From assembly GCA_951406725.2 (NCBI GenBank), contig OX597831.1, forward strand, positions 52,328,001 through 52,392,000: DNA of 64,000 nt, given 5' to 3'. The position numbers are program-made. Shown piece by piece: positions 54,632 to 55,364 of the stretch (position 1 is the stretch's first letter; each line of letters starts with the position of its first letter). Source of the DNA: Octopus vulgaris. Its lineage: Eukaryota.

Positions 54632-54699
<68 letters not shown>

Positions 54700-55304
54700 G
54701 TGAAATAGAAAGATGAATAATCTTGTAGCAGATTAATCAAAAGTTTAACCGATACCTTGGTAGCAAAAATCACAGCAGAAGACAGCACGGTTGGAGGAAC
54801 AACCATATGGTGTTGCAACCGTGCGTTGGTGCGGATAATTGAAATTAAAATATTATTGGTGAATTGAAGAAATGGAGCTGAACGAAGATTGAACAGAAAT
54901 CGTTTTATTTCATTCTACATGTGTTTCGAAAGGCACAATTTACCAAAATCCGATTGAATAATGGGACCATATTGTGTCTTTCTCTTCAGGAAGAAATAGG
55001 AAATCCGTTGGAAAAAACAAAACAGAACAGAGGCGGAGCAAAACAAATCGAACTAGGCTCCTAAGAGCCCATGGCAAAACTGTTTTGCCATGGGCTCTTA
55101 GGAGCTTAGTTCGATTTGTTTTGCTCCGCCTCTGTTCTGTTTTTGTTTTTTCCAACGGATTTCCTATTTCTTCCTGAAGAGAAAGACACAATATGGTCTC
55201 ATTATTCAATTGGATTTTGGTAAATTGTGCCTTTCGAAACACGTGTAGAATGAAATAAAACGATTTCTGTTCAATCTTCGTTCAGCTCCATTTCTTCAAT
55301 TCAC

Positions 55305-55364
<60 letters not shown>

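What the first reader, a model, noticed from the sequence alone, without database searches (positions are those of the whole stretch)
54698..55312. 462-bp palindrome with a 1-nt centre, and a shared asymmetry across all foldbacks
Seen: about 98% identical arms, each with a canonical-core HHR facing outward. In five foldbacks (2634, 25289, 30233, 47811, 54698) one arm keeps the full 3' end and the other stops about 50-150 nt short. Inference: first-strand cDNA folds back and self-primes before joining the second (TA)n end. Established: coleoids have extensive ADAR editing. Inference: such hairpins could be a large source of ADAR or siRNA substrate.
Basis: partly seen in the sequence, partly recalled or inferred. 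Interest (0 to 1): 0.8.

Follow-up and report, generated by a model that had tools for sequence, protein, structure and literature searches.

The report
Head-to-head hammerhead retroelement in (TA)n
The palindrome is real: two copies of a short, non-coding, ribozyme-carrying retroelement joined head to head inside a (TA)n microsatellite, an insertion pattern already described for Penelope-like elements, so it is a clear example of a known kind and not a new one.

Summary
The arms are 54850-55080 and 55082-55313, with a single T at the centre (55081). They match at 227 of 232 aligned columns: 4 transitions and 1 T-run indel. Each arm carries a complete type-I hammerhead motif reading outward. 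The left arm runs 152 nt further, and both outer ends abut pure (AT)n.

Four features together match the published insertion signature of Penelope-like elements and their non-autonomous derivatives:
- the hammerhead motif;
- the head-to-head inverted copies;
- an extension on one side only;
- the (TA)n target.

No reverse transcriptase or endonuclease gene lies in the window. The 384-nt unit occurs nowhere else in it, so family membership rests on anatomy alone.

It was already proposed for these elements in 2013 and has been documented for R2. Priming from both DNA strands, shown in vitro for a Penelope-like element, is not excluded, and it fits foldback 47813-48337 better.

The ADAR/siRNA idea could not be tested, and the organism could not be verified.

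Verdict: a new member of a known kind, of modest interest.

The parts
54635..54697 (.). Left flanking microsatellite, (AT)31.5, 100% pure. Presumed to be half of the target tract.
   Evidence: (TRF)
54698..54849 (-). 152-nt extension present only on the left (long) arm. On the - strand it is the 3' terminal part of the unit, ending ...TTTCACATT next to (AT)n.
   Evidence: It is bounded by (AT)n, like the extensions of 3 other foldbacks (chance product 1.2e-4).
54785..54824 (-). Predicted 9-bp-closed stem-loop inside the extension (GCACGGUUG...CAACCGUGC).
   Evidence: minimum-energy and centroid fold of the 384-nt unit; z = -2.86 for the whole unit. Function not shown.
54850..55080 (-). Left arm of the palindrome (231 nt), sense on the - strand.
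54916..54989 (-). Type-I hammerhead motif of the left arm: CUGAAGA, 55-nt helix II, GAAAC-ACAU-GUA. Loop 3 has lost its palindrome through a CpG transition.
   Evidence: fold
55081..55081 (.). Single unpaired T at the centre of the palindrome.
55082..55313 (+). Right arm of the palindrome (232 nt), sense on the + strand. It ends in AATAATAT, which merges into (AT)n.
55174..55247 (+). Type-I hammerhead motif of the right arm: CUGAAGA, 55-nt helix II closed by G10.1-C11.1, GAAAC-ACGU-GUA. The segment 15.1-16.1 is the palindrome ACACGUGU. Helix I is 9 bp with one bulge.
   Evidence: Rfam Hammerhead_1 below threshold but full length, 55168-55253
55310..55361 (.). Right flanking microsatellite, (AT)26, 100% pure. 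Its first 4 nt overlap the end of the right arm (microhomology).

Best explanation
What it is. The locus is a single insertion, into a (TA)n microsatellite, of a short (384-nt), non-coding, hammerhead-bearing retroelement. The element is of the kind mobilised by Penelope-like elements: a pseudo-LTR-derived or retrozyme-like non-autonomous element. It is present as two copies joined 5' end to 5' end.

How it most likely formed.
1. The + strand of the left (TA)n end primed reverse transcription at the element's proper 3' end. This made the full 384-nt arm, 54698-55081. (Inferred.)
2. At the 5' end of the RNA the cDNA 3' end turned round and copied the cDNA itself (snap-back). This made the second arm. 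(Inferred.)
3. After 232 nt the growing strand annealed through an A/T-only patch (AATAATAT) to the right (TA)n end and was joined there. This left the second arm 152 nt short. (The junction is shown; the process is inferred.)
4. The arms have since diverged by 4 transitions and 1 indel. (Shown.)

Consequences. A transcript crossing the locus would fold into a hairpin of about 230 bp (computed). It would carry only one sense hammerhead, so it cannot release a unit-length or circular RNA. The copy is probably a dead end for the element. That the hairpin RNA is made and then edited or diced is not shown.
For: Anatomy. The exact palindrome has a 1-nt centre, and the arms match at 227 of 232 columns.

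Ribozyme and orientation.
- The outward hammerhead motifs have every core nucleotide. Rfam's best family for the segment is Hammerhead_1, below threshold.
- Helix III is a 2-bp stem with a palindromic ACGU loop. PMC4209133 describes this form for metazoan type-I and Penelope-like-element hammerheads (passages).

Target and junctions.
- Both outer ends lie in pure (AT)n.
- The short-arm junctions of the five listed foldbacks sit in A/T-only runs of 10, 11, 7, 7 and 8 nt shared with the long arm. In the sixth foldback the junction to (CA)n sits at ...CAC.
- Long-arm ends show no such rule. Of the 5 listed foldbacks, FB1 (...CCGG), FB3 (...CTAC) and FB2 (...ATAG, next to (TG)n) have none, FB6 has 3 A/T nt, but FB5 ends in a 12-nt A/T-only run (...TTTTAATATATT).

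The extension belongs to the element.
- It is bounded by (TA)n in 4 foldbacks (chance product 1.2e-4).
- Two non-foldback hammerhead insertions in the window have 227 and 230 nt between cleavage site and 3' end. The long arm here has 218 nt and the short arm 66 nt.

One RNA template is not enough without a turn-round. The long arm has no internal direct repeat, so twin priming on a multimer cannot have copied positions 1-232 twice.

Literature.
- Penelope-like insertions show 5' truncation, partial tandems, an adjacent inverted copy, a one-sided tail and a (TA)n bias (PMC8557442).
- Self-priming was inferred from palindromes at inverted junctions, with a 31-bp tail on one inverted pseudo-LTR (PMC3846280).
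- Snap-back on the cDNA followed by junction formation was sequenced for R2 (PMC11204384).
Against: - No reverse transcriptase or GIY-YIG endonuclease ORF lies in the window. 186 stop-to-stop frames of at least 90 aa were listed. I sent 14 of them, those I judged not to be made of simple repeats, to Pfam, with no relevant family.
- The 384-nt unit has no other copy in the window. That it is repeated, and where its ends lie, is therefore inferred from one locus.
- No hammerhead reaches Rfam's gathering score, and cleavage is untested.
- The six foldback families and the two other hammerhead units share no sequence similarity beyond chance. They may not be one class.
- The extension here is 152 nt, against the 30-40 bp published for Penelope-like tails.
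- A 1-nt centre is too tight for a simple pre-formed hairpin, so a template switch without pairing has to be assumed.
- Foldback 47813-48337 is explained better by internal priming from the opposite strand.
- A Penelope-like protein cleaves and extends both strands in vitro (PMC11167929).
Confidence: 0.5

Rival explanations
1. The element and target are the same, but the two arms are two separate cDNAs. The retroelement protein, predicted to be a dimer, nicks both strands of the (TA)n tract and primes reverse transcription from each. One cDNA starts at the distal site (54698) and the other at an internal A/U-rich site (55313). Both run to the same RNA 5' end. They are linked end to end with one extra nucleotide, for example by a template jump onto the other cDNA.
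For: - The Penelope-like protein PAc cleaves and extends both top and bottom strands. It starts reverse transcription at two internal sites whose spacing equals the genomic tail, and it cuts AT-rich DNA (PMC11167929, parts 1-2 of the text read).
- Foldback 47813-48337 reads as rc(A')-B-C-A'-B. B is a 63-nt direct repeat, 100% identical, 364 nt apart. The inverted piece is exactly the segment that lies upstream of B in a tandem template, with a 9-nt overlap. That is the signature of internal priming from the opposite strand (L1 'twin priming', recalled from memory, not read).
- A single, non-foldback hammerhead insertion (11458-11851) has 90 nt between its 5' boundary and the ribozyme core, against 92 nt here. 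This hints at a defined RNA 5' end.
Against: - It needs two RNA molecules with identical 5' ends, both copied to the last base.
- The tail would be 152 nt, not the published 30-40 bp.
- The 90-versus-92-nt match is between units with no detectable homology, so it may be chance.
Confidence: 0.3
2. A DNA-level event after, or unrelated to, retrotransposition. One version is an inverted duplication or palindrome formed by break repair or replication template switching at a fragile, cruciform-prone (TA)n tract. The other is a once-symmetrical palindrome that later lost 152 nt of one arm by slippage between an internal A/T patch and the (TA)n tract.
For: - (TA)n tracts are very dense here: 128 pure tracts covering 6.1% of the window.
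- The short-arm ends lie in A/T-only patches, which slippage or deletion would also use.
- The foldback at 25285-25727 has inverted microsatellite flanks, (CA)n on the left and (GT)n on the right. This suggests the duplication included flank sequence or an element-borne tail.
Against: - The arms carry a complete outward-facing ribozyme typical of retroelements.
- All 6 of 6 foldbacks are asymmetric, and none is symmetric or truncated on both arms.
- Fold-back repair of a chromosome break does not normally leave both original flanks in place.
- The pattern matches a published retroelement signature point by point.
Confidence: 0.1
3. A DNA transposon with long terminal inverted repeats (MITE or foldback element) that targets TA.
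For: The structure is almost entirely inverted repeat and the flanks are TA-rich. MITE and Tc1-Mariner families are listed for Octopus vulgaris (PMC13282606, passages), if the window is from an octopus.
Against: - The ends of the insert are not inverted repeats of each other: AATGTGAAAT... on the left against ...CACCAATAAT on the right. The inverted repeat stops 152 nt from the left end.
- The centre is 1 nt with no internal region.
- Each arm holds an outward hammerhead.
Confidence: 0.03
4. An assembly or library artefact: a chimeric or hairpin read.
For: Palindromes and (TA)n tracts are hard to sequence and assemble, and PMC8557442 notes that such insertions trouble assemblies. The single indel lies in a T run and could be a sequencing error.
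Against: - The arms differ by 4 transitions, two of them at CpG. That is a mutational pattern, not an error pattern.
- The arms have unequal lengths.
- The palindrome is embedded between unique, non-inverted flanks.
- Five other foldbacks of different sequence and age (83-97% arm identity) lie in the same window.
Confidence: 0.05

Closest known systems
Insertion structure of endonuclease-containing Penelope-like elements (pseudo-LTRs with a hammerhead, an adjacent inverted 5'-truncated copy, a one-sided 'tail', an AT-rich or (TA)n target)
   Same: Head-to-head inverted copies with a palindromic junction. A type-I hammerhead with a short, palindromic helix III. An extension on only one of the two inverted ends. 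Insertion into (TA)n (PMC8557442; PMC3846280; PMC4209133; PMC11167929).
   Different: There is no RT/EN ORF here or anywhere in the window. The whole insert is only 616 bp. The extension is 152 nt, not 30-40 bp. The two copies share exactly the same inner end. There is no direct pseudo-LTR at this locus.
Metazoan non-LTR retrozymes (short tandem repeats with type-I hammerheads, expressed as circular RNAs)
   Same: The unit size (384 nt) lies within the 150-450 bp range. GC is low (37.5%, against <45%). The hammerhead is type I with a 2-bp helix III and a tetraloop. No coding capacity (PMC7229834, passages). A 2026 preprint argues they derive from Penelope-like pseudo-LTRs (abstract only).
   Different: Retrozymes are direct tandems, so two sense ribozymes can excise a monomer. 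Here the two copies are inverted, so no unit-length or circular RNA can be released. Helix II is 55 nt, against about 4 bp in retrozymes.
Snap-back 5' junctions of R2 retrotransposon insertions
   Same: The cDNA 3' end primes further synthesis on the cDNA itself before joining the upstream target. This gives an inverted segment at the 5' side of the insert (PMC11204384, passages).
   Different: R2 is a site-specific non-LTR element of ribosomal DNA. Those junctions were seen with engineered transgenes in human cells. No ribozyme-bearing short element or microsatellite target is involved.
L1 'twin priming' inversions
   Same: The second target strand primes internally on the RNA and gives an inverted 5' segment with a small overlap at the junction. 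This fits foldback 47813-48337.
   Different: On a single-copy template it cannot copy the same region twice. It therefore does not explain 54850-55313 unless a second RNA is used (no internal direct repeat).
Palindromic Harbinger repeats of Xenopus as ADAR hyper-editing substrates
   Same: A repeat that folds on itself into a tight, long dsRNA without needing a neighbouring inverted copy (PMC5625713, passages).
   Different: That is a DNA transposon with a palindromic consensus and measured editing. Here the palindrome is made at insertion, and no editing data exist for this locus.

Membership tests
Hammerhead ribozyme, type I (Rfam RF00163) | Conserved core: C3 U4 G5 A6 N7 G8 A9, G12 A13 A14, A15.1-U16.1, H17 | tested here: met
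   Both arms have CUGAAGA ... GAAA ... U-A (GUA cleavage triplet) and a G10.1-C11.1 pair.
Hammerhead ribozyme, type I (Rfam RF00163) | Three helices around the core, with open helix I (type I topology) | tested here: met
   Helix I is 9 bp with one bulge, helix II is 11 bp with one A/C mismatch, and helix III is 2 bp plus a tetraloop (descriptor). Helix II and, for the left arm, helix I appear in the RNAfold structures. Fold energies of the ~125-nt pieces are no better than shuffles (z = -0.24 and -0.86). No covariation test was possible because the two copies are not independent.
Hammerhead ribozyme, type I (Rfam RF00163) | Score at or above the family's gathering threshold | tested here: not met
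   No match at gathering score or at E<=10 on 801 nt. On 126 nt: 14.8 bits against 34, E = 0.47, full model 1-45 aligned with a 51-nt insert in helix II.
Hammerhead ribozyme, type I (Rfam RF00163) | Self-cleavage | not testable with these tools
   Needs in vitro transcription. A short palindromic helix III predicts activity only as a dimer (PMC4209133).
Penelope-like element (autonomous) | ORF with a telomerase-like RT and a GIY-YIG endonuclease | tested here: not met
   186 frames of at least 90 aa were listed. 14 of them that I judged not to be made of simple repeats were scanned against Pfam, and none matched RT or GIY-YIG. The remaining frames were not scanned.
Penelope-like insertion signature (non-autonomous derivative) | Hammerhead motif in the terminal repeat | tested here: met
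   PMC4209133
Penelope-like insertion signature (non-autonomous derivative) | Inverted copy adjoining the 5' end (head-to-head), with a palindrome at the junction | tested here: met
   PMC8557442; PMC3846280
Penelope-like insertion signature (non-autonomous derivative) | Short extension ('tail', 30-40 bp) on one end only | tested here: inconclusive
   A one-sided extension is present, but it is 152 nt here and 52-85 nt in the other foldbacks. Whether it lies between two discrete initiation sites cannot be told from one copy.
Penelope-like insertion signature (non-autonomous derivative) | AT-rich or (TA)n target | tested here: met
   Both ends lie in pure (AT)26-31. 8 of 10 ends of the five foldbacks abut such a tract, against 0.026 expected per end.
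Penelope-like insertion signature (non-autonomous derivative) | Sequence homology of the repeat to the pseudo-LTR of an autonomous partner | not testable with these tools
Metazoan non-LTR retrozyme | Direct tandem repeats of the hammerhead-bearing monomer | tested here: not met
   The two copies are inverted and there is no direct repeat at the locus. A direct partial tandem with a hammerhead motif does exist elsewhere in the window (39382-40041).
Metazoan non-LTR retrozyme | Monomer of 150-450 bp with GC below 45% | tested here: met
   384 nt, GC 37.5%; PMC7229834
MITE / foldback DNA transposon | Inverted repeats at the very termini of the insert | tested here: not met
   The inverted repeat ends 152 nt inside the left terminus.
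Twin-priming inversion on one template | The inverted segment comes from the RNA region upstream of the direct segment | tested here: not met
   The inverted arm repeats positions 1-232 of the direct arm, and the direct arm has no internal direct repeat. The feature is met for foldback 47813-48337.

The most novel reading that the evidence does not exclude
In this genome, retroelements that turn round during insertion into (TA)n microsatellites routinely create perfect hairpin loci. There are six foldbacks in 64 kb, with about 2.8 kb (4.4%) of the window in their arms (my sum of the coordinates). If the genome is a coleoid, such insertions could be the so-far unannotated source of the exceptionally high density of long, near-perfect dsRNA-forming loci and of the hyper-editing reported for octopus. 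PMC5625713 left the octopus out of its repeat-class analysis for lack of annotation. The short-arm and long-arm junctions would also give a natural, genome-wide readout of how Penelope-type reverse transcriptases finish integration.
Probability: 0.15. Interest if true: 0.6.

Novelty: new member of a known kind. Interest (0 to 1): 0.3.

Why it matters
First, how Penelope-like elements integrate is still called undefined in the literature (PMC8557442). Loci like this one preserve both junctions and the turning point of a single event. A genome-wide census of the family could therefore separate snap-back from two-strand priming without any biochemistry.

Second, a near-perfect hairpin of about 230 bp (-498 kcal/mol) is an ideal ADAR or Dicer substrate if it is transcribed. 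Six such foldbacks in 64 kb suggest a sizeable reservoir.

Third, these structures are easy to mis-annotate as MITEs or microRNA precursors. Rfam's below-threshold plant MIR matches are an example. They are also easy to mis-assemble.

Tried and rejected
- Rfam at gathering score over the whole window gave no family. Rfam at E<=10 over 54600-55400 gave only generic long-hairpin matches to plant MIR families, all below their cut-offs and taken as an effect of the hairpin shape. Rfam at E<=10 on 39580-39700 gave nothing.
- BLAST of the 384-nt unit against the window found only its own two arms. Sensitive BLAST of all foldback and hammerhead units against each other and against the masked window found no cross-family match better than E = 0.016.
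- Global and local alignment with shuffles of the three hammerhead units: z = 2.7 at best in the global test, and 376, 355 and 139 of 500 shuffles reached the observed local scores. Homology is not shown.
- A relaxed hammerhead search, allowing one core mismatch, over all foldbacks found nothing in the four other listed foldbacks or in the sixth. The motif at 14941-14971 from the first loose pattern failed the full descriptor and is taken as chance.
- ARAGORN found no tRNA-like head, so this is not a tRNA-derived SINE.
- Organism check with the Helitron-like ORF: two protein searches returned only unnamed or insect proteins, so the coleoid origin stays unverified.
- Helitron reading rejected: the insert's ends do not fit the 5'-TC...CTRR-3' termini, a motif I recall from memory.
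- Twin priming on a multimer rejected for this locus.
- Not used: genome contigs (bacteria and archaea only). The closed collections were not searched. Structure and complex prediction were not relevant to non-coding DNA.
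Full report
**1. The observation**

The region reads (AT)31.5 at 54635-54697, then 616 bp of complex sequence, then (AT)26 at 55310-55361. Within the complex part:
- 54850-55080 and 55082-55313 are reverse complements of each other around a single T at 55081;
- they match at 227 of 232 aligned columns;
- the five differences are four transitions, two of them at CpG, and one extra T in a T run.

After masking simple repeats, this is the only inverted match at the locus. The sequence beyond the two (AT)n tracts is unique and not inverted.

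**2. The ribozyme**

I wrote a full descriptor: CUGANGA, a closed helix II, GAAA, a 2-bp helix III, UH, and a helix I of at least 5 bp.
- It hits only 55174-55247 (+) and 54989-54916 (-) in the whole window.
- It gave a mean of 0.01 hits in 100 dinucleotide shuffles. I wrote it after seeing the motif, so it is partly post hoc.
- Both motifs read away from the centre.

The core is canonical: CUGAAGA; a G10.1-C11.1 pair; GAAA; C15.2-G16.2; cleavage triplet GUA. Two features are unusual:
- Helix II is 55 nt long.
- Helix III is a 2-bp stem with loop ACGU, so positions 15.1-16.1 form the palindrome ACACGUGU. In the left arm a CpG transition has turned the loop into ACAU.

PMC4209133 (passages) describes exactly this short, palindromic helix III for metazoan type-I hammerheads and those of Penelope-like elements. 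It links the form to activity as dimers.

Rfam does not call the motif:
- nothing at gathering score;
- nothing at E<=10 on 801 nt;
- on 126 nt, a full-length alignment to Hammerhead_1 at 14.8 bits against a cut-off of 34, the score lowered by a 51-nt insert in helix II.

Cleavage is untested. The two copies are not independent, so covariation could not be assessed.

**3. The asymmetry**

The left arm continues for 152 nt (54698-54849) before the (AT)n tract. The right arm stops at AATAATAT, which runs straight into (AT)n.

| Foldback | Arm identity | Loop or spacer | Extra on one arm |
|---|---|---|---|
| 2707-2855 | 96% | 8-nt loop | 72 nt, left |
| 25285-25642 | 83% | about 25-nt centre | about 85 nt, right |
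| 30283-30757 / 31152-31621 | 94% | 394-nt spacer | 52 nt, left |
| 47813-47910 / 48185-48282 | 97% | 274-nt spacer | about 54 nt, right |

It is also asymmetric.

Three observations indicate that the extension belongs to the inserted unit and is not simply flanking DNA:
- In four foldbacks it is bounded by a (TA)n tract. The chance product for tracts that close is 1.2e-4.
- In 47813-48337 it is a 63-nt direct repeat, 100% identical, of an internal segment.
- In two hammerhead-bearing insertions that are not foldbacks, the distance from the cleavage site to the 3' end is 227 nt (11458-11851) and 230 nt (39382-40041). The long arm here has 218 nt and the short arm 66 nt.

Only this foldback has a canonical hammerhead. 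The one at 2707-2855 has a hammerhead-like skeleton with C at position 4, and the others have none. For those others, 'the 3' end' is an assumption.

**4. Junction rule**

Where the short arm meets the microsatellite, the last bases it shares with the long arm are A/T only. The runs are 10, 11, 7, 7 and 8 nt in the five listed foldbacks.
- The window is 65% A+T.
- Under independence, a given 7-nt stretch is A/T only with p of about 0.05 (my arithmetic).
- In the sixth foldback the microsatellite is (CA)n and the junction is ...TTTTCAC|ACAC.

The long-arm ends show no such rule:

| Long-arm end | Junction |
|---|---|
| FB1 | ...CCGG\|TATA |
| FB3 | ...CTAC\|TATA |
| FB6 | ...CACATT\|ATAT |
| FB2 | ...ATAG\|TGTG |
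| FB5 (the exception) | a 12-nt A/T-only run, ...TTTTAATATATT |

So in most of these foldbacks one end looks like a defined start, and the other end looks like a join by microhomology. With five or six loci this is suggestive, not proven.

**5. What it is**

Eight of the ten outer ends of the five foldbacks abut a pure (TA)>=6 tract within 6 nt, against 0.026 expected per end. The window also holds two other forms:
- a direct partial tandem (P-Q-P, unit 477 nt, 39382-40041) with a hammerhead motif, between (TA)n tracts;
- a single 394-nt hammerhead insertion between microsatellites.

The published signature of Penelope-like elements lists these features (PMC8557442, passages; PMC3846280, passages):
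- hammerheads in the terminal repeats;
- partial tandems;
- an adjacent inverted copy joined head to head;
- a one-sided extension;
- a (TA)n bias.

In Adineta vaga the inverted pseudo-LTR is 37 bp shorter than the full ones, and a 31-bp tail sits on one of the inverted pseudo-LTRs.

Against full membership:
- The window has no RT/EN gene. 186 frames of at least 90 aa were listed. I sent 14 that I judged not to be made of simple repeats to Pfam, with no relevant hit.
- The unit is 384 nt, non-coding and 37.5% GC.

It is best called a non-autonomous element of the Penelope or retrozyme kind (PMC7229834, passages; preprint 10.64898/2026.07.22.740005, abstract only). It is not a retrozyme in the strict sense, because the copies are inverted and not in direct tandem.

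Homology to any named family could not be tested, because no eukaryotic genome or transposon library was available. The foldback families and hammerhead units in the window share no similarity beyond chance. Treating them as one class therefore rests on architecture alone.

**6. How it formed**

Two mechanisms give this product.

- Target-primed cDNA synthesis starts from the left (TA)n end.
- At the RNA 5' end the cDNA turns round and copies itself.
- The strand then joins the right (TA)n end by A/T microhomology.
- This explains the shared inner end, the defined long-arm end and the microhomology at the short-arm end.
- It was proposed for Penelope elements from palindromes at inverted junctions.
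- It has been sequenced for R2 insertions: 'Snap-back' junctions templated mostly by the cDNA itself and followed by junction formation with the upstream target (PMC11204384, passages).

(b) *Priming from both strands.*
- The PAc protein cleaves and extends both strands of an AT-rich target.
- It starts at two internal RNA sites whose spacing is the tail (PMC11167929, parts 1-2 of the text).
- For this locus it needs two RNAs copied to the same 5' end and linked with one extra base.

Twin priming on a single multimeric RNA is excluded for this locus. Positions 1-232 are copied twice, yet the long arm has no internal direct repeat.

It fits foldback 47813-48337 very well. There the order is (AT)n, rc(A'), B, C, A', B, (AT)n. 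The inverted piece is exactly what lies upstream of B in a tandem template, with a 9-nt overlap. Under snap-back, that coincidence is unexplained.

My estimates for this locus are about 0.5 for snap-back, 0.3 for two-strand priming and 0.1 for later DNA-level events. A transposon with terminal inverted repeats and an assembly artefact are unlikely:
- the termini are not inverted repeats of each other;
- the arms differ by transitions and are of unequal length;
- the flanks are unique.

**7. Consequences**

A transcript across 54640-55370 is predicted to form a hairpin of about 230 bp (-498 kcal/mol; shuffles average -149).

In such a transcript only one hammerhead is in sense, and it is locked inside the duplex. 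No unit-length or circular RNA can be released, so the copy is probably a dead end for the element (inference).

Whether the locus is transcribed, edited or diced cannot be told from the sequence. PMC5625713 (passages) is relevant here:
- It reports that Octopus bimaculoides has an exceptionally high fraction of loci able to form long, near-perfect dsRNA, and very strong hyper-editing.
- It could not assign repeat classes in octopus for lack of annotation.

I could not verify that the window is coleoid. The only informative ORF, a Helitron-like N-terminal region at 33937-34593 (-), found only unnamed or insect relatives. PMC13282606 (passages) lists Penelope-like families in Octopus vulgaris.

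**8. Novelty**

Every element of the structure, and the self-priming idea itself, is already in print for Penelope-like elements.

My library searches turned up no description of palindromic hammerhead elements in cephalopods: octopus / Penelope / hammerhead; cephalopod / inverted repeat / ADAR / transposable / hairpin; octopus / RNA editing / repeats / dsRNA / hyper-edit; Penelope-like / head-to-head. These searches cover open-access text only, and I read listings and selected passages only. One search ('twin priming' with 'Penelope') listed three papers, which I did not read.

I rate the finding as a new member of a known kind. It is a clean specimen that may be useful for mechanism, but it is not a new category.

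**9. What stayed unchecked**
- Copy number and consensus of the family.
- An autonomous partner element.
- Read support for the assembly.
- Expression and editing.
- The organism.
- The closed collections (metagenome and viral contigs) were not searched.
- Genome contigs holds only bacteria and archaea and was not used.
- The supplements of the papers cited were not opened.

Noticed in passing
window 47813-48337: This foldback has the order (AT)n, rc(A') 47813-47910, B 47910-47972, C 47973-48184, A' 48185-48282, B 48274-48336, (AT)n. The two B copies are 63 nt, 100% identical and 364 nt apart, while A and A' are 97% identical. The inverted piece is the segment just upstream of B in a tandem or circular template, with a 9-nt overlap (TAACAATTA). 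This reads like twin priming on a multimer.
   Followed up: partly
The right arm is cut short and joined to (CA)n at ...TTTTCAC|ACAC. The left arm runs on into 29-nt tandem repeats at 34932-35029. There is no (TA)n at its ends and no hammerhead.
   Followed up: partly
window 39382-40041 (- strand): A direct partial tandem P-Q-P (unit 477 nt; P copies 183 nt, 96% identical) between (TA)19 and (TA)9. It has a hammerhead-like motif at 39654-39612 (CUGACGA ... GAAAUCGGUC, 2-nt palindromic loop 3), 230 nt upstream of the 3' end. Helix I is weak (4 bp), and Rfam finds nothing even at E<=10.
   Followed up: partly
window 11458-11851 (- strand): A single 394-nt insertion between (ATAC)n and (CA)n(TA)n, with a hammerhead motif at 11761-11685 (CUGAUGA, 58-nt helix II, GAAAC-AGCU-GUA; 15.1-16.1 is the palindrome ACAGCUGU). 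It has 90 nt from the 5' boundary to the core and 227 nt from the cleavage site to the 3' end, against 92 and 218 nt in the long arm of the studied palindrome. Sequence similarity does not exceed chance. It failed the stricter descriptor.
   Followed up: partly
window 25270-25834: The foldback at 25285-25727 is flanked by (CA)n on the left and (GT)n on the right, so the microsatellite flanks themselves are inverted. Either the repeat is an element-borne 3' tail or flank sequence was duplicated along with the element.
   Followed up: no
window 2787-2835 (+) and its mirror in the left arm: A hammerhead-like skeleton right next to the 8-nt loop of the foldback: an 8-bp helix I, CCGAUGA (C in place of U4), a very short helix II with a GCAA loop, and GAAAC-UCAA-GUA. 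It is not canonical and was not counted as a ribozyme.
   Followed up: partly
window 33937-34593 (- strand): A 218-aa open frame with a C..C...W...CC..GKV.LP pattern. Its second-best relative (E = 2e-11) carries Helitron_like_N and PIF1 domains, and the best hit (66% identity) is an unnamed 1191-aa protein. This is probably a Helitron remnant. The frame itself has no Pfam match.
   Followed up: partly
whole window: Extreme microsatellite load: TRF reports 133 rows. There are 128 pure (TA)>=6 tracts covering 6.1% of the window, plus many (ATAC)n, (CA)n and (AG)n arrays. GC is 35%.
   Followed up: no
window 17392-20896: A cluster of diverged (71-83% identical) inverted matches between segments 0.7-1.3 kb apart. 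These are probably dispersed copies of an older repeat in both orientations.
   Followed up: no
window 54995-55168: At a relaxed threshold Rfam matches the centre of the palindrome to several plant microRNA precursor families (MIR6457 at 101.6 bits against a 140 cut-off, and others). This is a generic effect of a long perfect hairpin and a possible source of false microRNA annotation.
   Followed up: yes
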